A stretch of DNA of 64,000 nt from a virus. Taxonomy: Duplodnaviria; Heunggongvirae; Uroviricota; Caudoviricetes. The stretch is from positions 7,179 through 71,178 of the IMG/VR virus record IMGVR_UViG_3300022218_000001. One strand, given 5' to 3'. The translations under genes were made by a program, and so were the position numbers. Below, piece after piece: positions 10,755-64,000 of the stretch; position 1 is the stretch's first letter, and every line of letters begins with the position of its first letter. The notes beneath the pieces are model-generated. The model worked only from the letters and a program-made list of their open reading frames with translations. It searched no databases and was not told where the DNA came from.

Positions 10755-10768
10755 AGGAGGTGCTGAGA

Positions 10769-35584: not shown

Positions 35585-35588
35585 GCTT

Positions 35589-50897: not shown

Positions 50898-50956
50898 GTC
50901 TTAGCTCCTGACTTCATTTCTTTGTCGCGCGGTAATGAAAAGAGTGGAGAGGCAAT

Positions 50957-51901: not shown

Positions 51902-51960
51902 GCCCTGGTCGAAGTGAAGAGATCTCTCTGTGAGTCTTTATGACTCGGTCACGGTCAGTA

Positions 51961-51997
51961 CCGGCGTGCTTCGGCAGGAGCGCGCCGGTTTTTTTTA
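51961..51997 (+). terminator. rho-independent terminator after capsid gene
   Basis: ccggcg ... cgccgg stem + T9. Confidence 0.75.
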
Positions 51998-52108
51998 GCA
52001 TCGCTGTCTGCCGCTCTCGGCCCCAGTCCACTGGTGTAAACGGCCGTGGTGTTGGAACCCACGGTGGACCGGGAGCGGCGATTCTTATCCTATATTTTGG
52101 TGGGAAGA

Positions 52109-52744
52109 ATGTTGAAACAGATCTCACGGGACTGGATTGATCCAGGCACCTGCGGTTCTGGGGGGAAGCTTCAGCCTGTTTGGCTTTCGAAGCTATTCGA
52201 GGCATCCGAGATCGTTGAGGGCGAAACTGTCCTCGACTATGGGTGTGGAAACGGGCGGCTTGCGAACTTCATCAGCTCAAAGATTGAGCAGTTTCAGTAT
52301 TTTGGCTTGGAGCTGTGGAGCAGCCACGGGAGGGATTGCATTTCAGATGCGAGAGTGTGGCTCGGTGAGGACCCTCGCGTTCAGTTTGGATTCATTGATG
52401 CTGAGCTTGAGGACGAGGCTATCTCTAAGGCTGACGTTGTTGTCCTTGGGAGCATACTCCCTCATCTGTCGGCCGATGATTCCATCACGCTCTTACAGAA
52501 ATTCATCCCGCTACTTGACCGTGGTGGGCGCATTTGCTTTAGCTGTAAGATAGAGGAACGACAGAAGAATTCTGGGTACAGCAAGGCTTACGGGGTCAAC
52601 GGCTGCTTCAACTGGATCATTCATTCCAAGCTGTTCCTTGGCCGGATCAGAAGGGAAGTGGCTCCTTTGCGGAAATGCCCGGTTCATTTTAAGCATCAGA
52701 GATATTCGCATGATTTCTTCATGGTTGAGAGGCCGAGACAATGA
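52109..52744 (+). CDS. class I SAM-dependent methyltransferase
   Basis: VLDYGCGNGRLANF motif I; acidic motif II region. Confidence 0.55.
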   Translation: MLKQISRDWIDPGTCGSGGKLQPVWLSKLFEASEIVEGETVLDYGCGNGRLANFISSKIEQFQYFGLELWSSHGRDCISDARVWLGEDPRVQFGFIDAELEDEAISKADVVVLGSILPHLSADDSITLLQKFIPLLDRGGRICFSCKIEERQKNSGYSKAYGVNGCFNWIIHSKLFLGRIRREVAPLRKCPVHFKHQRYSHDFFMVERPRQ

Positions 52745-52995
52745 AAGAAGACGCGGTCCCTCACGCCCTTGACTGCTGTGCTGGACGGTATCATTTTGCG
52801 GAGGCCAAGTTGACTGAGAAGGAGAGGATCCGGGGGATCACGGCGATTGCCCGCGTGAAGCCTCTTGACCGCGCAGAGCGGCGCGCTGAGCGGCTCGCAC
52901 GGAAGAAAAGAGAACGTCGCATTTATCGTGAACTTCTGGCAAGGTATGCAGCAGTAGCCGAAGATCAGGATATTTTCAATCCCGGGAGGGAATAA
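52741..52995 (+). CDS. hypothetical small basic protein
   Basis: ATGA overlap. Confidence 0.3.
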   Translation: MKEDAVPHALDCCAGRYHFAEAKLTEKERIRGITAIARVKPLDRAERRAERLARKKRERRIYRELLARYAAVAEDQDIFNPGRE

Positions 52996-53005
52996 GGAGT
53001 CGACG

Positions 53006-53830
53006 ATGCAGGCTGTTATCCTTGCTGCTGGATGGGGGACTCGAATAGGTGAGCTTGGAGAGGTGACGCCCAAGCCCCTTTTGCCTCTTGGTCGGGGGTG
53101 CGTCATTGACAGTGTGCTCACTTCGTTGTGGGTTGAGCCAGTCACTCAAATTAGGGTAGTCCACAATAACCATCGAAGCCGGGTGGCTGGGAGCTGGCCA
53201 AAGAGGTTCAAGACCTGGGCTCAGTCTGTCCGCTGGACTCCCGAGCCGGGGCACAATCCGGAGCACCCCCGTATCCGCCTCATCAATGACCAAGTCCAAG
53301 ACCCGGAGCAGAAGATTGGATCGGTCGGCGACATGGCTTTCGCTGTCCGCAAGAACTCAAGGCGAGATCTGCCTATCGTTTTTGCCTGCGGCGATGATAT
53401 TTACTCGAATTCTCACCTCGAGGAGCTGGCCGGTGAGGGTAGTGCGATCGTCGTACGGAACGTTAACGACATGGACCCCCTTGTGGAGAGCGCCAAGCCG
53501 TCCAGGGTGGACGTCAAGGCAGGAATGGTCGATGAGGTTGGCCTTGGCGCAGAGAATACTCCGTGGCGCTTCTGTGGCCCCCTGTGGCTCGCTGGGGAGG
53601 ACATGGGCTTCCTCTTGGAATATGCCGACATCTGGCAGAAGGCCGGAGTTGTACCGGACTCGATTGGCGAATTCATCGAAGCCCTGGTCTCATCTGGTCG
53701 TCCGGTTCGAGCAGTCAAAGCCTCTACGTTTTTTTGGACTGTTGGGAACAAGGATCTCTACAAGATGATAAAAAAGAGGCATGCGCCAATACGTCGAGAG
53801 GTTAGGCGCCTTCGGAGGGTAAACACATGA
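53006..53830 (+). CDS. sugar-1-phosphate nucleotidyltransferase (NTP_transferase family)
   Basis: MQAVILAAGWGTRIGELGEVTPKPLLPL canonical G-x-G-T-R ... K-P-L-L motif; RBS aaggag. Confidence 0.75.
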   Translation: MQAVILAAGWGTRIGELGEVTPKPLLPLGRGCVIDSVLTSLWVEPVTQIRVVHNNHRSRVAGSWPKRFKTWAQSVRWTPEPGHNPEHPRIRLINDQVQDPEQKIGSVGDMAFAVRKNSRRDLPIVFACGDDIYSNSHLEELAGEGSAIVVRNVNDMDPLVESAKPSRVDVKAGMVDEVGLGAENTPWRFCGPLWLAGEDMGFLLEYADIWQKAGVVPDSIGEFIEALVSSGRPVRAVKASTFFWTVGNKDLYKMIKKRHAPIRREVRRLRRVNT

Positions 53831-54516
53831 GTGCTGTGGTTGAACGAAGGGAGCAATTCTGTGAACAAACAACGGAGCTTACACATGGCTCTATTACGCA
53901 GGAAGATTGGGCAGCTCTCCGCCGGACCCTCTTTGATGTCCATGAAGCCTTTTGTTCGCTACCCCGGCCCGGCCTCATTGTGGAAGTCGGAACCCTTGGT
54001 GGACGAACAACGAGAGGGATCTTCGAAGTCCTCAATCGGCTTCGGTGGGATGTCCCTGATGTCGTGACGATCGATACCGATAAAAGGTGCTTGGGTGACG
54101 CAGTCTTCAATCAGTGCCATGGGTTTAAGAATTCCCTCCGCACTTTCCATGGCCGGTCGACAGACTGGAAGCCAGTAGAGCCAATTTGGTGGGCATTTGT
54201 TGATGGCTGTCACTGCCATGAGTGTGTCCTTGCGGACCTGATGCATCTTTCTCGGCACGTCCCTGTTGATGGAGTTATTTGCCTGCACGACGCAGGAGAT
54301 CAAAGAAGCCTGGAGATGCTTGTTCATGAGCGGTATCACGGCTGTGATGGAGTGAGCCGGCTCTATGGGGTCACAAGTGCGATCGATGAATGGCTTGGGT
54401 GCTTTGACGATTTCACATGGGAGCAATTAGAGTGCGTTAAGGCGCAGGAGCGCCCTCGTGGCTCTCCAACGCCACTCTTCGGTGGAGTCCAAGCCTTTAG
54501 GAGGAAAAGGCCGTGA
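53827..54516 (+). CDS. TylF/CmcI-like class I SAM methyltransferase (paralog 1)
   Basis: IVEVGTLGGRTT and FVDGCHCHECVLADL...ICLHD motif (DG-x-H ... hydrophobic-HD). Confidence 0.5.
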   Translation: MSAVVERREQFCEQTTELTHGSITQEDWAALRRTLFDVHEAFCSLPRPGLIVEVGTLGGRTTRGIFEVLNRLRWDVPDVVTIDTDKRCLGDAVFNQCHGFKNSLRTFHGRSTDWKPVEPIWWAFVDGCHCHECVLADLMHLSRHVPVDGVICLHDAGDQRSLEMLVHERYHGCDGVSRLYGVTSAIDEWLGCFDDFTWEQLECVKAQERPRGSPTPLFGGVQAFRRKRP

Positions 54517-55145
54517 AGCTGAATGCTGACTTCGTTGAAAGAATCAAGGCCTATGAAAAGATGGGCCGGCGTTCTTCGCTGGCGCCGACCCATTGGAAGG
54601 ACCACCCGCCATCGATGTTTGAATACATCAAAAAAGTGCTGCCGGCCCCTCATGTTGTTGTTGAAGTAGGATGCTCGCATGGCCGTTGGTCACGAATGAT
54701 GTTGGAATCATTTCCATCGATTGAGCGGTTCTTCGGGATTGATGTCTGGGGTCCAACCGGTACGAGCCGTTGCAGAGGGGCTGACTGGAAGCATGACTTT
54801 GTTTACTTGGCGACAAGCTGGTTTGACCATGTCCGGCCTTGGCTCTTTGAAAAAGCGTTCCCGCTGCCAGGCGACCAAAGGCTGTGGTGCGATGCCTTTC
54901 CAGTTGAAGTCGATATGGTGTTCCTCGATGGGAACCACTCGAAGGAGGTCGTTTTGAATGACCTGCATCGGTGGTGGCCAAAGATTCGATCGGGGGGCTT
55001 AGTCATGGGCCATGACTACTACGATGAAGGTCCAAACATCCGTGTGGCTTGTGAGAATGTCGTCCATGCTGCAAGGGAGTTTTTTGGTGTTGATGGATAC
55101 GAGGCTCACAATGAGTTTCGGGCTTTTTGCAAGATCAAAGATTAG
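54513..55145 (+). CDS. TylF/CmcI-like class I SAM methyltransferase (paralog 2)
   Basis: VVVEVGCSHGRWS; FLDGNHSKEVVLNDLHRWWPKIRSGGLVMGHDY. Confidence 0.6.
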   Translation: MKLNADFVERIKAYEKMGRRSSLAPTHWKDHPPSMFEYIKKVLPAPHVVVEVGCSHGRWSRMMLESFPSIERFFGIDVWGPTGTSRCRGADWKHDFVYLATSWFDHVRPWLFEKAFPLPGDQRLWCDAFPVEVDMVFLDGNHSKEVVLNDLHRWWPKIRSGGLVMGHDYYDEGPNIRVACENVVHAAREFFGVDGYEAHNEFRAFCKIKD

Positions 55146-55816
55146 GAGATGAAGAGATGGTGGATAAGGCTAAAGCGGAAGTCAACGCGCGGAGGCGTGC
55201 ACGCATCAGGGCACAGTCAGGAATCGTGGAGAAGGGGGAGGCTCCTCCGGCATCCGAGCTTGGAGAGTACAGTGAGAATTACATTTCCACTATAATTCCG
55301 GTGAAGGACTTCTCTCCGGCGAACAACTACAAAGCTCAGATGTGGGAGATCATCAAAGAGCACTTTGGAGACAAGGAGCCTGGCATCGCTGTCGAAGTTG
55401 GGGCAAAACGTGGGCACTGGGCGGCTGGCCTGCTTCAGGGCACGAAGAAGACGCAGCTCTTCTGCGTAGACCCATGGGCTGGTCGTCAGGGTCGCCAGAG
55501 CATGGCAGTGTGGTTCAAGCGGTGCGCTCCGCATGTTTTCACGCGATGCCATCCGCTGGTAGGGACATCGCTTGATTGGTCTCGATACTTCCCATACTTC
55601 GTAGATCTTCTTTTCGTCAATGGGCTCCACGATGCGAAGAGCGTGCAGCTCGACCTTCAACGGTGGGCTCCTCGCGTGAAGCCTGGGGGGCTAATCATCG
55701 GTCATGACTATAACGAGGCAGACATTAAGAAGGCTGTCGATGACTTTTTTCCAGATCTGACTGGCGTCCAGAAGCTTGGCCCGGGGGACGCTGTCTCTTT
55801 TTGGAAAGCTTTATGA
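55127..55816 (+). CDS. TylF/CmcI-like class I SAM methyltransferase (paralog 3)
   Basis: IAVEVGAKRGHWA; FVNGLHDAKSVQLDLQRWAPRVKPGGLIIGHDY. Confidence 0.6.
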   Translation: MQDQRLGDEEMVDKAKAEVNARRRARIRAQSGIVEKGEAPPASELGEYSENYISTIIPVKDFSPANNYKAQMWEIIKEHFGDKEPGIAVEVGAKRGHWAAGLLQGTKKTQLFCVDPWAGRQGRQSMAVWFKRCAPHVFTRCHPLVGTSLDWSRYFPYFVDLLFVNGLHDAKSVQLDLQRWAPRVKPGGLIIGHDYNEADIKKAVDDFFPDLTGVQKLGPGDAVSFWKAL

Positions 55817-56784
55817 GCAAGAGCTTCAAACGCATTGTCATTCCGATGCGCAGGGCGATGGTGCATTGGGGGAAAGATTTATTCGCTCTTGCGCTTGCGT
55901 CGTGCTTCAGGTCGCTCGGCTTTAAAGTCATCATGCCGGATGTTAGTGATGTTGGCCCCGGCGACTTCACGCGGAATGACTTTGTTCTTTTTGTAGACTG
56001 GGCATCCGCTCGATCTAAGTTTTCGAATGCGCTGGTGTATGCCCGTCGAAATAAAGCGACGACAGCTCATTACAACATGGAGCCTATAGCACCGGCTCCA
56101 TGGCTTCTTGACTCATTCAACTCAAGATCCAAGCGGTACCGAGAGAAGATTTCCGGCAAGTTTGATATAATCTTCGATTACAACCAAAACACAACAGACA
56201 TCTTGAAGGCGAGGGGGGAGAATGCATATCTTCTCCCAATGGGGTACCATGAAAGCTACGAGGTCGCGTGGCTTCCTCCGTTCGATGTTGGTGCGCATTG
56301 GCTCGGCCTCGAGTACCACCCACCTCCGAAGGGTGCTGAGTACGATCCAAGAATTCTTGACCGTAGGGGCGAGATTTGTAAAGCGATCCGGGAGGCCGGG
56401 GCTCCTTGCTCCAGCCATTTCTTCCGAGGGCTCCCAGGCCGCCTCGACCTAATGCGCAAGATGCTCTCCACCCCAGGTGTCCACCTCAATCTGCATCGCC
56501 CGGGGTCTCCATTTCAGTTCGGCGGAATCCGTGTTATTCAGCTCTTGATGTCAAATCGGAGATTCGTCCTTTCTGAGCCATGCTCTTGGTACCCAGAAGG
56601 GCTTACCCCGGGCGTTCATTGGGATGTTGCTGAGCCAGAACAAATCCCAGAGCATGTTTTGTATTGGCTGAAGAAGCCGATTAAGAGAGAGGCGGTCGCC
56701 AGGGCTGGGTATGAGTTCATTCGAGCCAACCACCGGCTCGATGTCTTTCTCAAGCAGGCTTTAATAGAAGCGGGAGTTATGTAA
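55813..56784 (+). CDS. CgeB-like glycosyltransferase-like protein (paralog of 32870..33766)
   Basis: ATGA overlap; shared blocks with minus-strand paralog; C-terminal KREAVARAGYEFIRANH resembles GT-B C-terminal helices. Confidence 0.4.
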   Translation: MSKSFKRIVIPMRRAMVHWGKDLFALALASCFRSLGFKVIMPDVSDVGPGDFTRNDFVLFVDWASARSKFSNALVYARRNKATTAHYNMEPIAPAPWLLDSFNSRSKRYREKISGKFDIIFDYNQNTTDILKARGENAYLLPMGYHESYEVAWLPPFDVGAHWLGLEYHPPPKGAEYDPRILDRRGEICKAIREAGAPCSSHFFRGLPGRLDLMRKMLSTPGVHLNLHRPGSPFQFGGIRVIQLLMSNRRFVLSEPCSWYPEGLTPGVHWDVAEPEQIPEHVLYWLKKPIKREAVARAGYEFIRANHRLDVFLKQALIEAGVM

Positions 56785-56786
56785 AA

Positions 56787-57143
56787 ATGGCAAAAGTGAT
56801 TTGTTTTGACATCGATGGTTTCTTGACAGTGGACTCAGACATGAAGCGTGCAGATTTGTCAGGAAGCTACATTTATCGAGAGCCTCGAGTTCGTGCAAAG
56901 GAGGTGATGCTTCGAGCCTATGAGGCCGGGTGGTATGTGTTGCTCTTTACTGGTCGCAGAGAGCAGCAACGGCGGATTACTGAGGATTGGCTTCAATCAC
57001 ATGGCTTCCCCTATCATCATCTCCAGATGGGGAAGCCGTACTTCACATACGTCATGGACGATCGCGTTCTTGGCGCTTCAGTAAATGAGCAATTGGACGC
57101 ATTCGAAAAGGTTCTTGAAGAAGAGAAAGCGGATGCAGAGTAA
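56787..57143 (+). CDS. HAD-superfamily phosphatase
   Basis: Motif I ICFDIDGFL (DxD), later T and K, motif IV MDDR. Confidence 0.5.
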   Translation: MAKVICFDIDGFLTVDSDMKRADLSGSYIYREPRVRAKEVMLRAYEAGWYVLLFTGRREQQRRITEDWLQSHGFPYHHLQMGKPYFTYVMDDRVLGASVNEQLDAFEKVLEEEKADAE

Positions 57144-57172
57144 GGGCCGGTGGTTGATCAGAGGAGGTCAAA

Positions 57173-58099
57173 ATGCCTATCAAAAGAGAAGGCTCAAAGG
57201 AGCAGCGAAGGCGTGAGAAGGCAGAGCGCATCCGGGTGGCAATGGAGCGCAGAAAGGGTAAGCGCCCACCGCGCCCTCCTGAATCGGCTCTGGTAAAGGG
57301 TGCCAAGGGGAATGTCCATATGCGGCGCAGGGTGTCGCATTTTTGGGGTAAATATCCGGACTCTGATATTTTTGTCTGTGGGACAGGAACGAGTTTGGCC
57401 GGTTTCGACTGGACGCGGCTTGGAGGCCGAATTACCATAGGCCTTAATGACGCGCTCAAGATTCCCGGGTTTGCACCAGCGTTCTCACTCTTTAGCGATA
57501 TTGGAATTTGGAGCCGATATCGCAATCTGACGCTTGACAAACGAACAATGGTTGTATGCCAGGGCCGGTCACGCGATCAGTTTATGAAGTACGAGAAATG
57601 CAGCTTCAAAGATCAAGTCTGGCACTTCAACCAACAGGCCACTGCGAAGGCTTGCGACTCAAAGAACGACGATCTCTATTGCGCAAGAACGATCGCTTGC
57701 GCTGGCATCATGATGGCTTACAAGCTGGGTGCTCGACGTGTCTTTCTCTTGGGGGTGGACGGCTACAAGCTTTCCGGCAAGGACGGCGGCCAATATTACC
57801 ACGACGGATCTGGGAAGGGGCCAGAGCGCCGCAAAGAGCAGGGCGTCCCGGGAACTACTCAGGTGGTGCAAGACCGTCATGGCTGGTGGGAAACAAACAT
57901 GAAGGAGCTGCGAGACTGGTTCGACAGCCTGGGTGTGTACCAAGAGCCGTTCCGAAAGGGCCGTCACTTCGGGTCGAATGTCTTTACTCTTTCAGGGCTT
58001 TCTACAATACCGCAATGGGAAAAGGTGAAAGTGAAGACCGTTCTTGGGAGGGGGTGTTTTGATACTAAACACAGATCTGTCCGGCATGCTGGACAGTAG
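57173..58099 (+). CDS. MptE/DUF115-like (Maf-type) protein
   Basis: FVCGTGTSL loop; ACAGIMMAYKLGARRVFLLGVDGY motif. Confidence 0.5.
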   Translation: MPIKREGSKEQRRREKAERIRVAMERRKGKRPPRPPESALVKGAKGNVHMRRRVSHFWGKYPDSDIFVCGTGTSLAGFDWTRLGGRITIGLNDALKIPGFAPAFSLFSDIGIWSRYRNLTLDKRTMVVCQGRSRDQFMKYEKCSFKDQVWHFNQQATAKACDSKNDDLYCARTIACAGIMMAYKLGARRVFLLGVDGYKLSGKDGGQYYHDGSGKGPERRKEQGVPGTTQVVQDRHGWWETNMKELRDWFDSLGVYQEPFRKGRHFGSNVFTLSGLSTIPQWEKVKVKTVLGRGCFDTKHRSVRHAGQ

Positions 58100-58124
58100 G
58101 TACCTATCGGCTGGAGGCTAAGCT

Positions 58125-58739: not shown

Positions 58740-58741
58740 TC

Positions 58742-59821
58742 ATGGTAAAGGTAGCTCGCTTCGCAGGGGCAAGGCTCACAGGGATCAAAGCTCTTCAGGG
58801 TAAGCACAAAAGGGCAAGCGTTGCGGTGTGCGGCTCTGGTGTGACGTTGAATGATTTAGATCTTAGCAGGATCCCGGATCATTGGATCGTTGTTGCTGTG
58901 AACGAAGCAATCCGGAAGCTTGGTTCAAGGGCTGATTATTGGGTTCTGTCGGATGAGCCCATTGTGCGTGGCTACGCAAAACTCTGCCCGAGAGACGTCA
59001 CGATTCTCGCGATGCATCAAGCCACGATCTCAATCCCAGCCGTGTGCCCACATCACGAGTTCTATACCGTGAACTCAATTAACAAAATCGTGACACCAGA
59101 TGACGGCTTTAATTTCTTCAGTCGTGGTACGGTTTTGATCGGAGCTATCGAGATGCTTCGTTACACAGGGGCAAAGAGGTTCTATTGCTTCGGCCTTGAC
59201 TGTTATCGCACAGAAGAGGCGTACTACTATGATGGCCGCAAGCCGCCGATGGTCACAGAGCAGCGGTGCGATGATAGGGAGAGGGGGCAAGGCGTCCCCC
59301 CTGGAGTCCGTATTTATGTAACATCCAGGCTCCAAAACATGGTCAAAAAGCTCAATGAGCTTAGACGCGAAGGGCTATGGAACGAAGTGGAGATCTTCTG
59401 TGTGAATTCACCTTATTCACAGCAGACTGCGATTCCAAAAATCAGCCCGGAAGAGTTCAAGCAGCAGCGGCAAAGGAGCATCGATAATTTCAAGAGAAAG
59501 CGGAGGAGGAAACATGCAGAGGCACAGGCCGCCATTCAGGAAGGATCCCCGGCTGCCGGGACTGAAGAACCCGAAGTTTTTGACGACTCTGGGAGTGGGG
59601 GGGCAGCTTACGGCGACGGACAGGACGACGCTCTTGTGGTCACTGGAGCAGGTGGTGAAGCTATCGGATCCACCAGTGAGCCCGGAGGGGGACACCCCAC
59701 CGATGGGGGCCTTGAGGAAACCGGTCTTCGTGGAGATCGGGACTCACATGGCGGGGACAGCGATACTGACGATGAAGGCTCTCCAGGGTCTTCGGGCGAT
59801 GGCGATCTTCCGGACGATTGA
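58742..59821 (+). CDS. MptE/DUF115-like protein with long acidic Gly/Asp-rich C-terminal tail
   Basis: AVCGSGVTLNDL loop; LIGAIEMLRYTGAKRFYCFGLDCY; tail ...GSGGAAYGDGQDD...DSDTDDEGSPGSSGDGDLPDD. Confidence 0.5.
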   Translation: MVKVARFAGARLTGIKALQGKHKRASVAVCGSGVTLNDLDLSRIPDHWIVVAVNEAIRKLGSRADYWVLSDEPIVRGYAKLCPRDVTILAMHQATISIPAVCPHHEFYTVNSINKIVTPDDGFNFFSRGTVLIGAIEMLRYTGAKRFYCFGLDCYRTEEAYYYDGRKPPMVTEQRCDDRERGQGVPPGVRIYVTSRLQNMVKKLNELRREGLWNEVEIFCVNSPYSQQTAIPKISPEEFKQQRQRSIDNFKRKRRRKHAEAQAAIQEGSPAAGTEEPEVFDDSGSGGAAYGDGQDDALVVTGAGGEAIGSTSEPGGGHPTDGGLEETGLRGDRDSHGGDSDTDDEGSPGSSGDGDLPDD

Positions 59822-60287
59822 CATCGATTTTTTCAATTGTCCTGGAAAGAACCAGTTCTATCCAAGGGATCGCTGGAAGGAAGTCGGCGTTCCGCTGGCG
59901 AAGCTGATTTCTCCTGAGATCGATGCTGATTTCATTGAATGCCCGGCCGTTGAGGCTGAGCAACAAATCCCGGATCCAATCTATTGGGTTTTCTGCGATG
60001 GCTGTCATTGCCGTGAATGCGTGGATGCTGAAATCGCGGCCTACGGGCCTCGCATCCAGCCTGGTGGTTTCTTCATTTTTCATGACTGTGGTGAAGAGTA
60101 CCGGGGTTATCCACCAGACCAGGAGTATCACGGCGATGCTGCACGGCAATTTGGTGTCATTGAGGGGGTGACTGAGTCCTCTATACTCAAGGAGGACTTC
60201 GAGCTGGTTGCAACTTCAGACAGTCGCCCGATTCGAACAGAGCACTGGTTCGGAGGTGCCTACTTCTTTAGGAGGAAATTGACGTGA
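59514..60287 (+). CDS. TylF/CmcI-like class I SAM methyltransferase (paralog 5), start uncertain
   Basis: VFVEIGTHMAG; FCDGCHCRECVDAEIAAYGPRIQPGGFFIFHDC; 5' region overlaps the tail of 58742 gene in another frame. Confidence 0.5.
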   Translation: MQRHRPPFRKDPRLPGLKNPKFLTTLGVGGQLTATDRTTLLWSLEQVVKLSDPPVSPEGDTPPMGALRKPVFVEIGTHMAGTAILTMKALQGLRAMAIFRTIDIDFFNCPGKNQFYPRDRWKEVGVPLAKLISPEIDADFIECPAVEAEQQIPDPIYWVFCDGCHCRECVDAEIAAYGPRIQPGGFFIFHDCGEEYRGYPPDQEYHGDAARQFGVIEGVTESSILKEDFELVATSDSRPIRTEHWFGGAYFFRRKLT

Positions 60288-60317
60288 ACATTAAAGTAAG
60301 GAGTGCGATAGCCGAGG

Positions 60318-61340
60318 ATGAATAGCTACAATCCAGACCGATGCTCTGCGCAGCTAATAAACAATTCGGCCAGCAGGCTACACCCGAATATTGTGATTAG
60401 CAGAGCCCCCCTTCGTATTTCATTCGTAGGTGGTGGGTCTGACTTGCCGCCAGGAGAAGGGGCTACGGTTTCTTGCGCAATCAATAAGTATGTTTACGTG
60501 GTGGCGAAATGGCGAAATGACGAAAGAGTCATTATGAACTGGAGGGATAAGGAGAACGTCAAAAACGTGCATGCTCTTCAGCACGAGCTTGCACGAGAGG
60601 TCCTCCTGTATTTTGGAGTTCATCAGGGCATAGAGATTTCGACTTTCGCCGATGTCCCAGGTGTTGGCAGTGGGCTTGGAAGCTCCGCTGCTACCACAGT
60701 CGCTCTCGTGCAGTCTGTCGCAGCTCTTACAGGTCTCTGGCTAGACGTTCATCGTTTGGCGAGGATGGCTGTACACATCGAGCTGGAGCGACTCAAGCGG
60801 AGAGGAGGCTCACAGGATCAATGGATTTCTGCTATTGGTGGGCTTTATTTACTTCTGCACAAGAACGGAAGATGTATCGATCAGACCCATCTTGGCCTTT
60901 CTCCTTCGCACTTGGCGCTTCTTGAGCGTCACTTTGCTCTCTTTAGTCCTCCAGATACCGACGTGGGGCGCAAAGCGGATACAGTCCTTGGTTCGAAGGA
61001 CGATAACGATGAGAGTTTTAGGAAGTGTTGCGAGAAGGTCGTTGACGCTTTTGGCTCTGCTCTGAAGAGTGATGATTGGTATGAATGCGGCAATCAGGTT
61101 AGCCAGCATGACAAGCTCAAGCGTTCGATTTTTGGAGAATACTATCCGAGATCTGGCCCTGAGCTTGATAAACTTGGGGTTCACTGGAAGCTTTGCGGGG
61201 CTGGTGGGACGGGGCATGTTCTTGTTGCTGTAAGACCGGAGACGCGCCGCAAAACCGTTAGGTCTATTGAGAAAATTTGGGGCCGCGAGCTGCCATGGAA
61301 GATTTCTGAGGCAGGAGCAGTGATCATTCATGCGAGCTAA
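60318..61340 (+). CDS. GHMP-family sugar kinase (HddA/heptose-7-phosphate kinase-like)
   Basis: ISRAPLRISFVGGGSDLPP N-terminal motif and ATP-binding PGVGSGLGSSAATTVALV motif. Confidence 0.75.
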   Translation: MNSYNPDRCSAQLINNSASRLHPNIVISRAPLRISFVGGGSDLPPGEGATVSCAINKYVYVVAKWRNDERVIMNWRDKENVKNVHALQHELAREVLLYFGVHQGIEISTFADVPGVGSGLGSSAATTVALVQSVAALTGLWLDVHRLARMAVHIELERLKRRGGSQDQWISAIGGLYLLLHKNGRCIDQTHLGLSPSHLALLERHFALFSPPDTDVGRKADTVLGSKDDNDESFRKCCEKVVDAFGSALKSDDWYECGNQVSQHDKLKRSIFGEYYPRSGPELDKLGVHWKLCGAGGTGHVLVAVRPETRRKTVRSIEKIWGRELPWKISEAGAVIIHAS

Positions 61341-61956
61341 TAGTGAGCGATTAGTCACTGGACGGGAGAAGCCTCCACCGAGGTATATTCGAAGGTTTGC
61401 GGTTCCTCGTAAATTAAGGGCTTCTCGTGATCCGATGTTTGAATGGATGGCTGAGGGTAACTGCAAGAAGGTTGTCGAGGTTGGGACTCAGTGGGGCTGG
61501 TGGGCGTATCGCGCGCTTACGCAACTTCCTGAAATTCAGCTTTGGTGTGTAGATCCCTGGCAGACAGATCGTGAGTCTGTTCGCCACTGGCATGGGGCGT
61601 TTAATCGATACGAGTGGCAGGATAATCTTAGCTCGTGGCTTGGGGGACGTGCGTTCGGCCTTCATGGAACAAGCAAGGACGTTGTTGGCTATTTTAGGGA
61701 CGAAGAGCTTGATTGTGTTTTTATAGATGGGGACCATTCGACAAAAGGAGTGGTCATCGATTTGAAGCTGTGGGTTCCAAAGGTTCGAAATGGCGGCCTC
61801 ATTCTTGGCCATGACTGGGATGGAATCTGGGGGAAGCAAGTTCGAGCTGGCGTCGTAGCATACTTCGGAGATTCTTGCCCCATTGATGCTGACATTGGGT
61901 ACTTGACGAAAAAAGGGAAGTCTGCTGTTTGGAAGGTGAAAAAGACATGGGACTGA
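61330..61956 (+). CDS. TylF/CmcI-like class I SAM methyltransferase (paralog 6)
   Basis: VVEVGTQWGWWA; FIDGDHSTKGVVIDLKLWVPKVRNGGLILGHDW. Confidence 0.6.
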   Translation: MRANSERLVTGREKPPPRYIRRFAVPRKLRASRDPMFEWMAEGNCKKVVEVGTQWGWWAYRALTQLPEIQLWCVDPWQTDRESVRHWHGAFNRYEWQDNLSSWLGGRAFGLHGTSKDVVGYFRDEELDCVFIDGDHSTKGVVIDLKLWVPKVRNGGLILGHDWDGIWGKQVRAGVVAYFGDSCPIDADIGYLTKKGKSAVWKVKKTWD

Positions 61957-62645
61957 GTTCGCAAGAAATTGACGCTATCCACAAGCGGGCAAGAAGGCGA
62001 CCGCTTGGCGTATGCGTGCATGAGAAGTTTGGGCATGTTGTTGGAATTCCTCCAGGCCTTCGAGGGTTCAAGGATCCAATCTTCAGTCTCATGCCAGGCA
62101 GCGTGCATGTCGCTGTCGAGATTGGGACATGCCAAGGTTGGTTCGCGTACCGAATGGCAAAATTCCTGCCAGAGACAGCTCGTATTTTTTGCGTCGATCC
62201 TTTCTATGACGATGAGGGTGAAGGGTATGATGGGGAATACAACCTCTCTTGCTGGAAAAAGAATGTCAGGGAGTGGTTTGGAAGAAGAATTTTTCTCAAG
62301 CGTGGGGAAAGTTTCCATGAAGCGGAAAAGTGGGGCAACGGTGTACCTGTTGATTTTCTATTTATCGATGGTGATCATCGGTTCGAAGCTGTGCTCCTCG
62401 ATCTTGAAGGCTGGGTTCCAAAAGTGCGTCCTGGAGGGTTAATTGCAGGCCACGACATTGATGGGAAGTGGGGAGCTAACATCAAGAAAGCGTTGGAGAA
62501 TTACTGTGCAAAGGCTGGTATTGAGCAGGTGCACACAGGGAAAGCTTACAGTTTTACAGGAAAGCAAGTCACTCCATGCTGGTGGTTCTACAAACCGGTG
62601 CCGAAGGAAGCAGGGGGTGACGCAGTTTGGCGTTGGGAAAAATAA
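61929..62645 (+). CDS. TylF/CmcI-like class I SAM methyltransferase (paralog 7)
   Basis: VAVEIGTCQGWFA; FIDGDHRFEAVLLDLEGWVPKVRPGGLIAGHDI. Confidence 0.6.
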   Translation: MEGEKDMGLSSQEIDAIHKRARRRPLGVCVHEKFGHVVGIPPGLRGFKDPIFSLMPGSVHVAVEIGTCQGWFAYRMAKFLPETARIFCVDPFYDDEGEGYDGEYNLSCWKKNVREWFGRRIFLKRGESFHEAEKWGNGVPVDFLFIDGDHRFEAVLLDLEGWVPKVRPGGLIAGHDIDGKWGANIKKALENYCAKAGIEQVHTGKAYSFTGKQVTPCWWFYKPVPKEAGGDAVWRWEK

Positions 62646-62649
62646 GCCG

Positions 62650-63276
62650 ATGGAATTATCGCTTGAGAAAATTGCAGTTTGGAAGGATGCCTATAAGGGG
62701 GAGACAGCATGGATCCTTGGAAGCGGACCGTCCCTTGATGAGCTGCCCCCAGAGAAGGTTGGGCCGCATCGCTTTGCGTTGAATCTTACAATCCTCATTG
62801 AGGCCTATCGGGATTCTTGGTGGATATGTCGTGACGGCAGGGCAATGAAAAAATGGCTTTACTCTAATAGGTCGTCATGTATTGGGGAGGATCGCCGATA
62901 CGCAGATACCCTGTTCACGGATCACGCCGGCACACGGAGGGTGACGGAACTCGACATTGGGCCAGAGAAGCTGCGACGAATTGTATGCACGGGGCAGCGA
63001 TTCTACACAGGGGAGACGATCCTTGTTCTGGCTCTTCAGATAGCGGACTACATGGGCTTTTCTGAGATTGTTCTTGCTGGTGTAGATCTTCTGGATCCGG
63101 GAGGGGTTGCTTATGCGAAGGAGATCAACTGGCAATCGACATTTACGGCTGCCGCCAGGCCTGCGCGCTACAACCGGATGCGTAGAGACGTGGCCAGGCT
63201 GTCTACAGCAATGAATGCGAAGGTGTGGACTGTGTCACCTCATCTTGCTGATATCTTTGAGGAGATAAAGCTGTGA
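62650..63276 (+). CDS. MptE/DUF115-like (Maf-type) protein
   Basis: AWILGSGPSLDEL loop; TILVLALQIADYMGFSEIVLAGVDLL. Confidence 0.5.
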   Translation: MELSLEKIAVWKDAYKGETAWILGSGPSLDELPPEKVGPHRFALNLTILIEAYRDSWWICRDGRAMKKWLYSNRSSCIGEDRRYADTLFTDHAGTRRVTELDIGPEKLRRIVCTGQRFYTGETILVLALQIADYMGFSEIVLAGVDLLDPGGVAYAKEINWQSTFTAAARPARYNRMRRDVARLSTAMNAKVWTVSPHLADIFEEIKL

Positions 63277-64000
63277 AGCGTGATCGGCGTGTGAAGTATC
63301 CGTTGAGCACTTTTATCTCACATCCAAGAAGTGGCCTGACGTGGTTCCGTTTTATGTTCCATGAGATTAGAAAGCGGCATGATCCTGACAATCTTATGCC
63401 TCCACCGAAAAACACAGAAGAGCTGAATCCCCTTATCCTGTTCGATCATGACAACATGGGCACTATTGGTTCGATACTCCGGTTGAACAAAAGAAGGAAG
63501 CCAGAAAGGTGGGTGGGGCGTAAGGTTATTTTCCTCGCAAGAGATCCGAGGGATACGCTTCTCTCTAATTACCACATGCTTTCTGGCAGAGCGCAGCATC
63601 GTTCAGGTGTCAAGAGTCGTCTTGGCAAGACTGTGAAGTCCATGGATGCATTTTTCAGATCCAGGGCATTTGGGATTAAGCGTTATGTCGGCTGGGCTCG
63701 CTGGTGGGATACGCACAAGGGCTCGTGTAAAGACTTCATGCCAATTTACTACGAGGACACCCTTGAAAATCCGTTCTCTTCTTTGAGCTGCGCTCTCGAG
63801 TTTGCAACAGACGAGAACGTCCCGGCTAGCATCATGGAAGCGGCGGTGAGAGCTTCGTCTTTTGGAAAGATGAAACAGCGTGAAATCGATAACGGGCGTC
63901 TTTTCTCAGATCAGCAAGCAGCGGTCAACAATGATCCGCGCTGCCGGATAGTTCGAAAGGGCAAGGCTGGAGCTTGGCGCGATGAGCTTCCTGAAGAGTT
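63273..64000 (+). CDS. sulfotransferase (PAPS-dependent), 3' partial at window edge
   Basis: My own translation from GTG 63273 (GTGA overlap; ORF not in the supplied track): ISHPRSGLTWFRF (5'-PSB), KVIFLARDPRDTL (3'-PB RDPRD), IVRKGKAGAWRDEL C-terminal motif. Confidence 0.75.
   Translation, partial: MKRDRRVKYPLSTFISHPRSGLTWFRFMFHEIRKRHDPDNLMPPPKNTEELNPLILFDHDNMGTIGSILRLNKRRKPERWVGRKVIFLARDPRDTLLSNYHMLSGRAQHRSGVKSRLGKTVKSMDAFFRSRAFGIKRYVGWARWWDTHKGSCKDFMPIYYEDTLENPFSSLSCALEFATDENVPASIMEAAVRASSFGKMKQREIDNGRLFSDQQAAVNNDPRCRIVRKGKAGAWRDELPEE

What the first reader, a model, noticed from the sequence alone, without database searches (positions are those of the whole stretch)
52046..64000. Paralog-expanded sugar methylation/sulfation/glycosylation island right after the capsid gene
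The 12 kb after the capsid terminator carries a sugar-activation set and a large modification set, all co-directional with overlapping stops and starts.

- **Sugar activation:** a GHMP kinase (RAPLRISFVGGGSD), a HAD phosphatase (FDIDG) and an NTP-transferase (ILAAGWGTRIG).
- **Modification enzymes:** seven paralogous TylF/CmcI-like SAM methyltransferases sharing the motif (V/I)E(V/I)G(T)...DG(D/C)H...GG(L/F)(I/V)xxHD, three MptE/DUF115-like Maf-type proteins, a CgeB-like glycosyltransferase-like protein, one further class-I methyltransferase and a sulfotransferase.

MptE-like proteins are the catalytic core of flagellin nonulosonic-acid transferases (Maf). Combined with sulfation and repeated O-methylation, this suggests the phage builds and attaches a heavily methylated, sulfated sugar to a protein target. 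The capsid or tail, encoded next door, is the most plausible target; host surface modification is the alternative.

I am not aware of a described phage system with this composition.
Basis: partly seen in the sequence, partly recalled or inferred. Interest (0 to 1): 0.9.

Follow-up and report, generated by a model that had tools for sequence, protein, structure and literature searches.

The report
Giant phage glycan-building island after capsid
A 108-kb phage, probably of the uncultured phylum Latescibacterota, spends about 28% of its genome, starting right after the capsid gene, on enzymes that make sialic-acid-like sugars, attach them and then methylate and sulfate them. The most likely purpose is to sugar-coat its own particle, on a scale not described for any phage.

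Summary
Window 52046-64000 holds 17 co-directional, tightly packed genes:
- 7 Methyltransf_24 O-methyltransferases, all above Pfam threshold
- 3 MptE/Maf-like proteins
- one each of CgeB-like glycosyltransferase, class-I methyltransferase, GHMP kinase, HAD phosphatase, nucleotidyltransferase and sulfotransferase
- one 84-aa protein of unknown function

This is only the first third of the feature. The island runs about 30.4 kb and 42 genes, past the window end. The extension adds a NeuB-like synthase, a CMP-sugar synthetase, a 4,6-dehydratase, more methyltransferases and glycosyltransferases, and three more Maf-like genes. A PseC-like aminotransferase and a GNAT lie elsewhere in the window.

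The island is syntenic after the capsid gene in at least three related genomes, one inside a Latescibacterota chromosome. It is under purifying selection and absent from distant capsid relatives. No island protein has a membrane-spanning segment, and no 5hmC-type DNA-modification genes were seen.

Best reading: a late-expressed cytoplasmic factory that decorates a protein, most likely a virion protein. The acceptor is inferred, not shown.

Verdict: new variant of a known kind (virus-encoded virion glycosylation). Interest 0.78.

The parts
50957..51901 (+). Major capsid protein (HK97/P22-coat-like). It is the gene immediately upstream of the island and the leading candidate acceptor.
   Evidence: Pfam P22_CoatProtein 89.9 bits. 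It is 33% identical to the annotated major capsid proteins of Gordonia and Streptomyces phages.
51960..51989 (+). Terminator-like hairpin followed by T8, lying between the capsid gene and the island. It probably attenuates transcription into the island.
   Evidence: 13 pairs, 9 of them G-C, followed by TTTTTTTT.
52046..52744 (+). Class-I SAM methyltransferase. The public gene call starts at 52109.
   Evidence: Methyltransf_25 28.8 bits and Methyltransf_23 27.8 bits, both against a cut-off of 27. Gene call.
52741..52995 (+). 84-aa basic protein of unknown function, conserved in the closest relative.
   Evidence: No Pfam hit. 67% identical ortholog in L006.
53006..53830 (+). Sugar-1-phosphate nucleotidyltransferase.
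   Evidence: NTP_transferase 28.4 bits (cut-off 21.2). Only the N-terminal nucleotide-binding part matches NCBIfam and PDB entries.
53827..54516 (+). Methyltransf_24 O-methyltransferase, paralog 1.
   Evidence: PF13578 40.7 bits.
54513..55145 (+). Methyltransf_24 O-methyltransferase, paralog 2.
   Evidence: PF13578 54.9 bits.
55157..55816 (+). Methyltransf_24 O-methyltransferase, paralog 3. The ORF opens at 55127.
   Evidence: PF13578 64.2 bits. Gene call.
55813..56784 (+). CgeB-like glycosyltransferase (Glyco_trans_1_2).
   Evidence: PF13524 29.2 bits (cut-off 25). Duplicated in relative L006.
56787..57143 (+). Minimal HAD-superfamily phosphatase (118 aa) with a DIDG motif.
   Evidence: LNS2_PITM1-3 33.5 bits (cut-off 27.7). 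72-78% identical in L006 and L008, 53% in L018.
57173..58099 (+). Maf-like (MptE/DUF115) sialyltransferase-fold transferase 1.
58125..58739 (+). Methyltransf_24 O-methyltransferase, paralog 4. It forms a functional pair with the preceding Maf-like gene.
   Evidence: PF13578 67.9 bits. AlphaFold pLDDT 82; top hits are MeT1 and SpnH, both sugar O-methyltransferases. P0017 is a natural fusion of orthologs of this gene pair.
58742..59821 (+). Maf-like transferase 2, with a non-conserved acidic low-complexity C-terminal tail.
   Evidence: MptE-like 17.1 bits. BLAST E 1e-7 to transferase 1. Shares the family motifs in alignment A1.
59514..60287 (+). Methyltransf_24 O-methyltransferase, paralog 5. 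The likely start is 59703, which overlaps the tail of the previous gene.
   Evidence: PF13578 31.3 bits on the long ORF. The short public gene call lacks the VEIG motif.
60318..61340 (+). GHMP sugar kinase of the heptose-kinase (HddA/WcbL-like) subgroup.
   Evidence: GHMP_kinases_N 49.7 bits. Best NCBIfam hit is HddA at 61 bits. Best PDB hits are 3k85 (E 7e-18), 4usm/4usk and 4n3o.
61330..61956 (+). Methyltransf_24 O-methyltransferase, paralog 6.
   Evidence: PF13578 59.4 bits.
61947..62645 (+). Methyltransf_24 O-methyltransferase, paralog 7. The ORF opens at 61929.
   Evidence: PF13578 70.4 bits. By sequence, the nearest PDB entries are 6g7d and 4pca/4oa5 (O-methyltransferase family proteins).
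62650..63276 (+). Maf-like transferase 3 (208 aa, core domain only).
   Evidence: MptE-like 34.7 bits, at the cut-off of 34.6. Gene call.
63273..64000 (+). PAPS-type sulfotransferase. It runs on to window-equivalent 64067.
   Evidence: Sulfotransfer_1 54.2 bits. The motifs HPRSGLTW and RDPRD are read directly from the sequence.
34469..35584 (-). PseC/LegC-like sugar aminotransferase. It belongs to the nonulosonic-acid pathway but lies outside the island.
   Evidence: DegT_DnrJ_EryC1 179 bits. NCBIfam PseC 137 bits, LegC family 113 bits.
34047..34493 (-). GNAT N-acetyltransferase next to the aminotransferase; a candidate PseH-like step.
   Evidence: Acetyltransf_9 34.7 bits.
36221..36805 (-). 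Possible second sulfotransferase. Only the N-terminal PAPS-loop region matches, so the call is weak.
   Evidence: Sulfotransfer_1 21.3 bits against a cut-off of 22.
2159..2911 (+). Seventh Maf-like paralog, located among the replication genes.
   Evidence: MptE-like 26.9 bits. Aligned in A1.

Best explanation
The 12 kb is the first third of a glycan factory of about 30.4 kb and 42 genes. It is inserted in the head-morphogenesis operon of a circular 108.5-kb phage, directly after the major capsid gene and a leaky-looking terminator.

**Proposed mechanism**
1. Phage enzymes make a CMP-activated nonulosonic (sialic-acid-like) sugar. The enzymes are a 4,6-dehydratase, a PseC/LegC-like aminotransferase, a GNAT, a NeuB-like synthase and a PseF-like cytidylyltransferase.
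2. They also make a second NDP-sugar, using a heptose-kinase-like GHMP kinase, a small HAD phosphatase and a nucleotidyltransferase.
3. Six island-encoded Maf/GT42-fold transferases, plus a seventh elsewhere in the genome, and five other glycosyltransferases (CgeB-like, two unclassified paralogs, GT4-like, GT2) build the glycan. The work is done in the cytoplasm, by soluble enzymes, directly on the acceptor.
4. Eight metal-dependent sugar O-methyltransferases (Methyltransf_24), up to seven class-I methyltransferases and one or two PAPS sulfotransferases tailor the glycan.

**Acceptor.** It is most likely a protein, and most likely a virion protein (the capsid or another head protein). The particle would then leave the cell wearing a methylated, sulfated, sialic-acid-like coat.

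**Shown versus inferred.** The enzyme families, the synteny, the conservation and the lack of membrane proteins are shown. The sugar identities, the order of reactions and the acceptor are inferred.
For: **Enzyme inventory**
- Pfam, NCBIfam and PDB hits support each family.
- The island extends beyond the window in the phage's own genome.
- The window is continuous across the ends of the public contig, so the genome is circular.

**Maf-like fold**
- AlphaFold model at pLDDT 91.
- Foldseek top hits are Cst-II and other sialyltransferases.
- Family profiles hit Cst-II at E about 1e-4. The GxGxSL, N and GxD-x-Y...Y motifs align with its CMP-binding residues.
- The divergent 285-aa paralog joins the family by hhalign (probability 92%, E 8e-7).

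**Sugar O-methylation**
- A Methyltransf_24 model has MeT1 (E 1.8e-9) and SpnH rhamnosyl 4'-O-methyltransferase as its top hits.
- A natural fusion protein, P0017, joins orthologs of the adjacent Maf-like and Methyltransf_24 genes at 49% and 38% identity.

**Cytoplasmic, protein-directed, virion-linked**
- None of the 31 island proteins examined has a membrane-spanning segment, so the examined part of the island shows no flippase, polymerase or initiating phosphoglycosyl transferase.
- The island sits inside the terminase-portal-scaffold-capsid operon, co-directional with overlapping stops and starts.
- Distant relatives such as Gordonia phage Morgana go straight from the capsid gene to the head-tail adaptor and tail genes.
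- A homolog of the Maf-like protein sits next to the portal gene of an unrelated T7-like phage.
- Another homolog sits next to tail-protein genes in Caulobacter phage CcrColossus, together with a glycosyltransferase and a methyltransferase.

**Conservation**
- The same island lies after the capsid gene in IMG/VR contigs with 93% and 71% capsid identity, and in a Latescibacterota chromosome with 68%.
- It is under purifying selection.

**Precedent**
- Maf enzymes O-glycosylate flagellin in the cytoplasm (PMC4065374; bioRxiv 10.1101/2020.06.03.131540).
- Actinobacteriophage virions are glycosylated by phage-encoded glycosyltransferases and methyltransferases (Freeman 2023, as cited in PMC12582341 and PMC13313380).
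Against: - No direct evidence identifies the acceptor.
- The phage Maf-like proteins are 208-359 aa and lack the N- and C-terminal domains of bacterial Maf proteins (5MU5 is 632-666 aa; a 547-aa Maf-like hit is). They may therefore extend a glycan rather than start one on Ser or Thr.
- None of the pathway enzymes reaches an NCBIfam equivalog cut-off, so the sugars are unknown.
- No PseG/LegG-type hydrolase and no GmhA isomerase was found.
- One related copy lies inside a 4.3-Mb bacterial chromosome. Lysogeny, and hence a host-directed role, is therefore possible.
- One Maf-like paralog sits with the early genes.
- In this genome the genes after the island are on the minus strand, and tail genes could not be located.
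- 12.4 kb of the genome was not seen.
Confidence: 0.55

Rival explanations
1. Host-directed glycosylation. The island modifies a host protein or surface glycan, such as flagellin, pilin, S-layer or LPS. It would act during infection or lysogeny, to block superinfection, stop progeny sticking to debris, or give the lysogen a new surface.
For: - A related copy lies inside a Latescibacterota chromosome, suggesting a temperate lifestyle.
- Maf enzymes naturally act on flagellin (PMC4065374).
- One Maf-like paralog lies in the early region.
- Gene content differs between relatives, as it does in surface-antigen loci.
Against: - The island is embedded in the late head operon, behind the capsid gene, with no convincing internal promoters. 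The scan found 4 sigma-70-like sites against 7.6 expected from shuffles.
- The examined part of the island (31 proteins) shows no flippase, polymerase, lipid-carrier transferase or other membrane protein.
- Known phage seroconversion modules are a few genes, not 42 (own knowledge).
- No flagellin-like gene was seen in the 96 kb inspected.
Confidence: 0.2
2. DNA hypermodification. The sugar-activation genes and transferases append heptose-, Kdo- or nonulosonate-type glycans to phage DNA bases, as in the 5hmC-glycan gene clusters found in metagenomic phages.
For: - Phage DNA glycosyltransferase clusters use HAD-kinase, cytidylyltransferase and glycosyltransferase sets. They install heptose and Kdo-like acids, and some lie near structural genes (bioRxiv 10.1101/2023.12.21.572611).
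- This genome has the analogous kinase, HAD and nucleotidyltransferase genes.
Against: - No C5-cytosine methyltransferase, 5mYOX/TET dioxygenase or dCMP/dUMP hydroxymethylase appears among the Pfam-annotated genes over 96 of 108.5 kb. The only DNA methyltransferases are MT-A70 and N6_N4_Mtase.
- The best structural match of the transferase is a protein glycosyltransferase (Maf), not a T4 beta-GT-like enzyme.
- Fifteen methyltransferases and a sulfotransferase have no counterpart in the DNA systems.
Confidence: 0.1
3. A free or lipid-linked product. The island makes a soluble oligosaccharide, glycolipid or other small molecule (for example a decoy or signalling compound) that is never attached to a protein.
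For: - GT42-type enzymes (Cst-II) act on glycolipid acceptors, and the phage proteins share their size and core fold.
- TylF/SpnH-type methyltransferases are typical of natural-product tailoring.
Against: - No aglycone, polyketide or lipid biosynthesis genes and no exporter are present.
- The position in the head operon is conserved.
Confidence: 0.1

Closest known systems
Maf (motility-associated factor) flagellin glycosylation islands of Campylobacter, Aeromonas, Magnetospirillum and Clostridium
   Same: - MptE/MAF_flag10-fold transferases; the best structural match is Maf 5MU5.
- They are encoded beside a NeuB / CMP-synthetase / aminotransferase nonulosonic-acid pathway.
- There are multiple paralogous maf genes, with tailoring enzymes.
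- The chemistry is cytoplasmic and soluble (PMC4065374; bioRxiv 10.1101/2020.06.03.131540).
   Different: - The system is encoded by a phage, after the capsid gene, and no flagellin gene was seen.
- The proteins are single-domain, 208-359 aa rather than about 550-670 aa.
- They are accompanied by 15 methyltransferases, sulfotransferase(s) and five other glycosyltransferases.
Actinobacteriophage virion glycosylation (mycobacteriophages; Freeman et al. 2023, cited in PMC12582341, PMC13313380 and PMC11256854)
   Same: - Phage-encoded glycosyltransferases and a methyltransferase decorate capsid and tail proteins.
- The capsid here is a distant homolog (about 33% identity) of actinobacteriophage capsids.
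   Different: - Those systems are annotated as a couple of genes (for example two glycosyltransferases in Maravista, PMC11256854, or one glycosyltransferase plus one methyltransferase in Peregrin, PMC13313380) and are thought to draw on host sugar nucleotides (own knowledge).
- This one has 42 genes over 30 kb, its own nonulosonate and NDP-sugar pathways, Maf-like transferases and sulfation.
- The capsid relatives in INPHARED, such as Morgana, have no island after the capsid gene.
Giant-virus capsid and fibril glycosylation machineries (chlorovirus PBCV-1 capsid glycans with O-methylated sugars; Mimivirus fibril glycans). From own knowledge; the PBCV-1 capsid glycosyltransferase is mentioned in bioRxiv 10.1101/2023.12.21.572611.
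   Same: The virus carries its own sugar-nucleotide pathways, glycosyltransferases and sugar O-methyltransferases, and glycosylates its particle independently of host secretory machinery.
   Different: Those are eukaryotic viruses. I know of no Maf-like transferases, nonulosonate pathway or sulfotransferase in their clusters. There is no homology of the cluster as a whole.
Caulobacter phage CcrColossus / CcrPW gp126-131 (annotated only)
   Same: These are the only cultured phages in INPHARED with a homolog of the Maf-like protein. It is annotated 'alpha-2,3-sialyltransferase'. It lies directly after tail-protein genes and is followed by an NDP-sugar transferase, a methyltransferase and a GT9.
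   Different: - It is a four-enzyme cluster with no nonulosonate pathway.
- Identity is 28% over half the protein.
- Its function is untested.
Phage DNA glycan hypermodification gene clusters (bioRxiv 10.1101/2023.12.21.572611)
   Same: Phage-encoded sugar activation (HAD/kinase, cytidylyltransferase) plus glycosyltransferases, using heptose and ulosonic acids. They are sometimes found near structural genes.
   Different: Those clusters are defined by a cytosine methyltransferase plus a 5mYOX/TET enzyme, or by a hydroxymethylase. None was found here. The transferases there are GT-A, GT-B or T4 beta-GT-like rather than Maf-like.
GT42 bacterial sialyltransferases (Cst-I / Cst-II)
   Same: Similar size (about 260-290 aa) and the same CMP-binding core and motifs. 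They are the top sequence-profile and Foldseek hits.

Membership tests
Maf flagellin nonulosonic-acid glycosyltransferases | Central MAF_flag10 / MptE-like (PF01973) domain with a modified GT-A fold | tested here: met
   - 62650-63276 scores 34.7 bits, at the cut-off. The other paralogs score 17-27 bits.
- hhalign links the divergent paralog to the family.
Maf flagellin nonulosonic-acid glycosyltransferases | Catalytic acidic residues equivalent to E324 and D415 of M. magneticum Maf | tested here: inconclusive
   D109 and D196 (the GxD motif) are invariant in the 25-sequence family alignment. The GxD block aligns to 5MU5 residues 391-434. Residue-by-residue equivalence was not verified.
Maf flagellin nonulosonic-acid glycosyltransferases | Multi-domain protein of about 550-670 aa, with N- and C-terminal domains flanking the catalytic core | tested here: not met
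   The phage paralogs are 208-359 aa. The only extra segment is a non-conserved acidic tail.
Maf flagellin nonulosonic-acid glycosyltransferases | Encoded with flagellin and a nonulosonic-acid biosynthesis locus | tested here: inconclusive
   Nonulosonate pathway genes are present. No flagellin gene appears in the 96 kb inspected.
Maf flagellin nonulosonic-acid glycosyltransferases | Transfers a CMP-nonulosonate to Ser or Thr of a protein | not testable with these tools
   Needs enzymology or glycoproteomics.
GT42 sialyltransferases (Cst-I / Cst-II) | CMP-binding GNGPSL loop, Asn31, Tyr156/Tyr162 and catalytic His188 | tested here: inconclusive
   The GTGTSL, N92 and G-V-D-G-Y198 ... Y209 motifs align to the Cst-II motifs. 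An invariant His236 lies at the expected spacing, but the alignment stops before His188. The roles of the Cst-II residues are from memory.
Pseudaminic / legionaminic / neuraminic acid biosynthesis pathway | NeuB-type nonulosonate synthase and CMP-nonulosonate synthetase | tested here: met
   - Pfam NeuB and CTP_transf_3 hits.
- NCBIfam NeuB 156 bits, PseI 132 bits, PseF 79 bits. All are below the equivalog cut-offs, so the sugar type is undetermined.
Pseudaminic / legionaminic / neuraminic acid biosynthesis pathway | 4,6-dehydratase, aminotransferase and N-acetyltransferase steps | tested here: met
   Epimerase 116 bits and GDP_Man_Dehyd 79 bits. DegT 179 bits, PseC 137 bits, LegC family 113 bits. 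GNAT 34.7 bits.
Pseudaminic / legionaminic / neuraminic acid biosynthesis pathway | UDP- or GDP-sugar hydrolase / 2-epimerase step (PseG, LegG, NeuC) | tested here: not met
   No hit in any inspected gene. The two unclassified 327- and 341-aa paralogs have no Pfam or PDB sequence match.
GDP-D-glycero-alpha-D-manno-heptose pathway (GmhA-HddA-GmhB-HddC) | HddA-type heptose-7-phosphate kinase | tested here: inconclusive
   The best hits are heptose kinases: 3k85 at E 7e-18 over the full length, then WcbL and HddA. NCBIfam HddA scores 61 bits against a cut-off of 600.
GDP-D-glycero-alpha-D-manno-heptose pathway (GmhA-HddA-GmhB-HddC) | GmhA sedoheptulose-7-P isomerase, GmhB phosphatase and HddC guanylyltransferase | tested here: not met
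   No SIS-domain isomerase was seen. The HAD protein is 118 aa with no GmhB hit. The nucleotidyltransferase matches only generic N-terminal motifs.
TylF / CmcI / Methyltransf_24 metal-dependent sugar O-methyltransferases | PF13578 domain with a class-I fold and DxxH / HD acidic-His motifs, closest to enzymes of known sugar specificity | tested here: met
   Seven in-window hits of 31-70 bits. Motifs are visible in A4. Foldseek top hits are MeT1 at E 1.8e-9 and SpnH at 2.3e-7. The actual substrate was not tested.
Cytosolic PAPS-dependent sulfotransferases | Sulfotransfer_1 domain with the 5'-PSB and 3'-PB motifs | tested here: met
   54.2 bits. The sequence shows HPRSGLTW and RDPRD. Motif definitions are from own knowledge.
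Phage DNA glycan hypermodification clusters | C5-cytosine methyltransferase plus 5mYOX/TET, or a dNMP hydroxymethylase, next to the glycosyltransferases | tested here: not met
   None appears among the precomputed Pfam hits for 96 of 108.5 kb. 12.4 kb was not seen.
Phage-encoded virion glycosylation (actinobacteriophage type) | Glycans demonstrated on capsid or tail proteins and dependent on phage glycosyltransferases | not testable with these tools
   Only the genomic signature is met: glycosyltransferase and methyltransferase genes within the structural module.

The most novel reading that the evidence does not exclude
This phage lineage makes its own methylated, sulfated glycan containing a nonulosonic acid (and possibly a heptose) and attaches it to its capsid in the cytoplasm, using minimal Maf-like protein O-glycosyltransferases. 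That would be the first virus-encoded nonulosonic-acid protein glycosylation system and the first sulfated phage glycan. It would also be the largest glycosylation locus known in a phage, about 28% of the genome, and would amount to a self-made 'glycocalyx' on a bacteriophage of an uncultured phylum.
Probability: 0.4. Interest if true: 0.9.

Novelty: new variant of a known kind. Interest (0 to 1): 0.78.

Why it matters
**Scale.** If the product coats the virion, phages can invest a quarter or more of their coding capacity in a self-sufficient surface glycan. That is far beyond the small glycosyltransferase/methyltransferase sets annotated in actinobacteriophages (for example two glycosyltransferases in Maravista, PMC11256854). 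The consequences could include evasion of host receptors, defence lectins or grazers, particle stability, and stickiness in sediments or biofilms.

**Enzymes.** The island supplies a set of compact (208-308 aa) Maf-like transferases and about 15 sugar methyltransferases, each kept by selection. These are attractive for glyco-engineering and for learning how Maf enzymes recognise acceptors without their flanking domains.

**Host.** The integrated copy gives a first phage-host link for Latescibacterota.

**Annotation.** Such islands can be mistaken for bacterial contamination or 'auxiliary metabolic genes'. Recognising them as part of the head module changes how they are interpreted.

Tried and rejected
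- **Close phage relatives.** Megablast of 18 kb against INPHARED gave no match. There is no cultured close relative.
- **Walking along the genome.**
  - A single-protein scan of IMG/VR with the 285-aa paralog found nothing.
  - The terminase protein look-up failed.
  - The one metagenome scan was wasted on a low-complexity acidic protein.
  - As a result, record positions 50,216-62,611 of the genome stayed unseen.
- **Tail genes.** PHROGs and Pfam on genes downstream of the island, in the relative and in the window, found no tail or connector families. The tail module could not be placed.
- **The two 327- and 341-aa paralogs.** Neither has a Pfam hit, and a PDB sequence search with the 327-aa one found nothing. 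'Glycosyltransferase-like' is only a guess for them.
- **Considered and rejected**
  - *Bacterial contamination or mis-assembly.* The same synteny appears in four independent assemblies, and the contig is circular.
  - *Decaying duplicates.* pN is far below pS, and the orthologs are conserved.
- **Literature.** Searches for phage-encoded Maf/DUF115, nonulosonate or sulfated virion glycans found nothing relevant.

Full report
**1.

The + strand of window 52046-64000 carries 17 tightly packed genes (translations).

| Family | Coordinates | Bits (gathering cut-off) |
|---|---|---|
| Methyltransf_24 ×7 | 53827-54516, 54513-55145, 55127-55816, 58125-58739, 59514-60287, 61330-61956, 61929-62645 | 40.7, 54.9, 64.2, 67.9, 31.3, 59.4, 70.4 (26.3) |
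| GHMP_kinases_N | 60318-61340 | 49.7 |
| HAD (LNS2_PITM1-3) | 56787-57143 | 33.5 |
| NTP_transferase | 53006-53830 | 28.4 |
| Glyco_trans_1_2 (CgeB-like) | 55801-56784 | 29.2 |
| Sulfotransfer_1 | 63273 to beyond 64000 | 54.2 |
| Class-I methyltransferase | 52046-52744 | 28.8 / 27.8 |
| MptE-like ×3 | 57173-58099, 58604-59821, 62443-63276 | 21.0, 16.7, 34.7 (34.6) |

- Some Methyltransf_24 paralogs also give sub-threshold CmcI or TylF hits.
- The upstream gene is a P22/HK97-type major capsid protein (89.9 bits). It is preceded by a scaffold, a portal (PHROG 145) and a terminase.
- A strong hairpin followed by T8 lies at 51960-51989, between the capsid gene and the island.
- The paralogs are old, at 21-40% identity to each other.

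**2. The feature is much larger than the window shows**

- The window is part of a public contig, ena:ERZ27296478:k141_3134530 (108,612 bp).
- The window reads straight across that contig's end and start, which share 141 bases. The genome is therefore circular or terminally redundant, about 108,471 bp.
- Reading on past window position 64000, the co-directional island continues to a GT2 gene that ends at window-equivalent about 82,398. In total it is about 30.4 kb and 42 genes, or 28% of the genome.

The extension adds:
- the rest of the sulfotransferase;
- two paralogous 327- and 341-aa proteins with no family hit;
- three more Maf-like genes. Their support is MptE-like 21 bits for one, hhalign probability 92% (E 8e-7) for another, and a weak 17 bits for the third;
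- a PseF-like CMP-sugar synthetase (79 bits) and a NeuB-like synthase (NeuB 156, PseI 132 bits);
- a 4,6-dehydratase/epimerase (116 bits);
- an eighth Methyltransf_24 (57 bits);
- five or six more class-I methyltransferases;
- a 584-aa protein whose remote homologs carry Glycos_transf_1;
- an RNase_T-like exonuclease;
- a GT2 (47 bits).

Elsewhere in the window:
- A minus-strand cluster holds a PseC/LegC-like aminotransferase (34469-35584; DegT 179 bits, PseC 137 bits), a GNAT (34047-34493) and a weak sulfotransferase-like gene.
- A seventh Maf-like paralog lies at 2159-2911, among the replication genes.

**3. What the key proteins are**

*Maf-like proteins.*
- The six paralogs aligned in A1 (five from the island plus the seventh at 2159-2911) share the GxGxSL, N, GxD and Y motifs (A1).
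- Their profile hits Cst-II sialyltransferase (E 2e-4) and Maf 5MU5 (E 4e-3) among all PDB sequences.
- With 24 metagenomic homologs, AlphaFold gives a confident model of 57173-58099: pLDDT 91, pTM 0.82.
- Foldseek ranks Cst-II, archaeal MptE and bacterial and human sialyltransferases first.
- The profile alignment to Cst-II lines up the CMP-binding loop, the Asn and the GxD-x-Y...Y block. An invariant His follows at the spacing expected for the Cst-II catalytic His; that step is inference.

*Methyltransf_24.*
- A model of paralog 58125-58739 (pLDDT 82) is closest to MeT1 of Mycobacterium hassiacum and to SpnH, the spinosyn rhamnosyl 4'-O-methyltransferase. Cation-dependent O-methyltransferases come next.
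- So the model's nearest characterised relatives are sugar O-methyltransferases (SpnH per its PDB title; MeT1's sugar 1-O-methylating role is from memory).

*GHMP kinase.*
- Its best matches in both NCBIfam and the PDB are heptose kinases: 3k85 at E 7e-18, then WcbL and HddA.
- No pathway enzyme reaches an equivalog cut-off, so the sugars cannot be named.

*Gene-pair fusion.*
- One metagenomic protein, P0017, is a fusion of orthologs of the adjacent genes 57173-58099 and 58125-58739, at 49% and 38% identity.
- This argues that transfer and methylation act on the same product.

**4. Context and conservation**

- Capsid-based searches found IMG/VR contigs with 93%, 79%, 71% and 38% capsid identity.
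- They also found a copy with 68% identity inside CP070677.1, 'MAG: Candidatus Latescibacterota bacterium bin70 chromosome' (4.31 Mb).
- In the 93%, 71% and 68% relatives the island follows the capsid gene, in the same order, with orthologs 30-82% identical.
- In the closest relative it runs about 33 kb, to a pair of GT2 genes.
- Gene content varies between relatives. One has a duplicated CgeB-like gene. The Latescibacterota copy has extra methyltransferases before the portal.
- Between the window and the closest relative, synonymous sites are saturated (pS 0.67-0.92) while pN is 0.12-0.29. Each paralog is therefore maintained by selection.
- Capsid relatives at 37% identity or less (Nitrospinales, Planctomycetota, Glycomyces) show no island homologs within 10 kb of the capsid gene.
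- In Gordonia phage Morgana the capsid gene is followed directly by adaptor, tail and tape-measure genes.
- Homolog searches show dozens of related contigs of 50-108 kb, so the lineage is widespread in metagenomes.
- The integrated copy suggests Latescibacterota as host and a possibly temperate lifestyle.

**5. Where does the glycan go?**

Nothing computational identifies the acceptor. The following argue for a cytoplasmic protein acceptor that belongs to the virion:
- The island is part of the head operon, co-directional with overlapping stops and starts.
- None of 31 island proteins has a membrane-spanning segment, so there is no flippase, polymerase or initiating transferase.
- The best structural relative is a protein O-glycosyltransferase that works in the cytoplasm (PMC4065374; bioRxiv 10.1101/2020.06.03.131540).
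- Homologs of the Maf-like protein appear on their own inside the structural modules of unrelated phages:
  - next to the portal gene of a T7-like phage;
  - right after tail-protein genes in Caulobacter phages CcrColossus and CcrPW, where an NDP-sugar transferase, a methyltransferase and a GT9 follow.
- Phage-encoded virion glycosylation with glycosyltransferase and methyltransferase genes is established in actinobacteriophages (Freeman 2023, cited in PMC12582341 and PMC13313380).

Against this:
- The phage proteins lack the flanking domains of bacterial Maf and have the size of GT42 enzymes, which act on glycans.
- One paralog is in the early region.
- Lysogeny would allow a host-directed role.

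**6. Rivals**

- *Host-surface or host-protein modification.* Not excluded; I put it at about 0.2.
- *DNA glycan hypermodification.* This is a real published alternative that uses heptose and Kdo-type sugars (bioRxiv 10.1101/2023.12.21.572611). Its defining enzymes (a C5-methyltransferase plus 5mYOX/TET, or a hydroxymethylase) are absent from the 96 kb inspected. Only MT-A70 and an N6/N4 methyltransferase are present. About 0.1.
- *A free glycan or glycolipid product.* About 0.1.

**7. Novelty and verdict**

- Literature searches found no phage-encoded Maf/DUF115 system, no virus-encoded nonulosonate protein glycosylation and no sulfated phage glycan.
- A legionaminic-acid glycan on the archaeal virus HRPV-1 is known from the literature (PMC6137143, title and abstract only); as far as I recall it is made by the host.
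- The kind of system (a virus glycosylating its own particle) is known from actinobacteriophages, chloroviruses and mimiviruses.
- The composition, the self-sufficiency and the scale (42 genes, 28% of the genome) are new.
- I therefore file it as a new variant of a known kind, with high interest (0.78).
- Confidence is 0.55 for the full mechanism. It is about 0.9 for the enzyme inventory and about 0.5 for a virion acceptor.

Noticed in passing
window 2159-2911 (+): A seventh Maf/MptE-like paralog (26.9 bits) lies outside the island, among early and replication genes (VRR_NUC, SNF2 helicase, Prim-Pol, UvrD). It may have a different acceptor or different timing.
   Followed up: partly
window 32870-37473 (-): A minus-strand cluster holds the PseC/LegC-like aminotransferase, a GNAT, a weak sulfotransferase-like gene and three genes of unknown function. 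These are the precursor steps of the sugar pathway, placed 15 kb from the island on the other strand. The GC skew flips sign here.
   Followed up: partly
window 58742-59821 and 59514-60287: Maf-like 2 ends in an acidic Gly/Asp/Ser-rich tail of about 110 aa. The tail is not conserved in relatives and overlaps the N-terminus of the next Methyltransf_24 ORF by about 120-300 nt. The public gene call (start 59772) cuts off that enzyme's SAM-binding VEIG motif.
   Followed up: partly
window 10760-11887 and 44837-46132 (+): There are two DNA N-methyltransferases (MT-A70; N6_N4_Mtase), the second just upstream of the terminase. No C5-methyltransferase or TET-like gene was seen.
   Followed up: no
whole window; join at window 36943-37083: The window reads through the end-to-start junction of the public 108,612-bp contig, whose ends overlap by 141 bases. 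The genome is therefore circular or terminally redundant, about 108,471 bp. No tRNA genes were found in the window.
   Followed up: yes
L018 and L017 (CP070677.1, 1,945,943-1,990,316): A related phage (capsid 68% identical) with the same island lies inside a 4.31-Mb Candidatus Latescibacterota MAG chromosome. This points to the host and possibly to lysogeny. That copy also has four extra methyltransferase genes between terminase and portal.
   Followed up: partly
L034 11847-12449 (window-equivalent about 77.2-77.9 kb): An RNase_T/DnaQ-like 3'-5' exonuclease gene (44.6 bits) sits in the middle of the glycan island. It is conserved at the same place in the closest relative (L014 18046-18633). 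Its role there is unexplained.
   Followed up: no
L002 17191-18048 (window-equivalent 69840-70697): The NeuB-like synthase is only 285 aa. It matches model positions 3-269 of 329, so it lacks the C-terminal SAF domain of bacterial NeuB/PseI enzymes.
   Followed up: no
L034 20899 onward (-), just after the island: The genes after the island switch to the minus strand and include a highly acidic, repetitive protein of at least 319 aa. Tail genes could not be located anywhere in the 96 kb inspected.
   Followed up: partly
L010-L012 (T7-like podophage contigs, e.g. JBEFFE010004364.1): A 259-aa homolog of the Maf-like protein sits directly after the portal gene of an unrelated T7-like phage that has no sugar pathway of its own. 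Stand-alone Maf-like genes may be a recurrent feature of phage head modules.
   Followed up: partly
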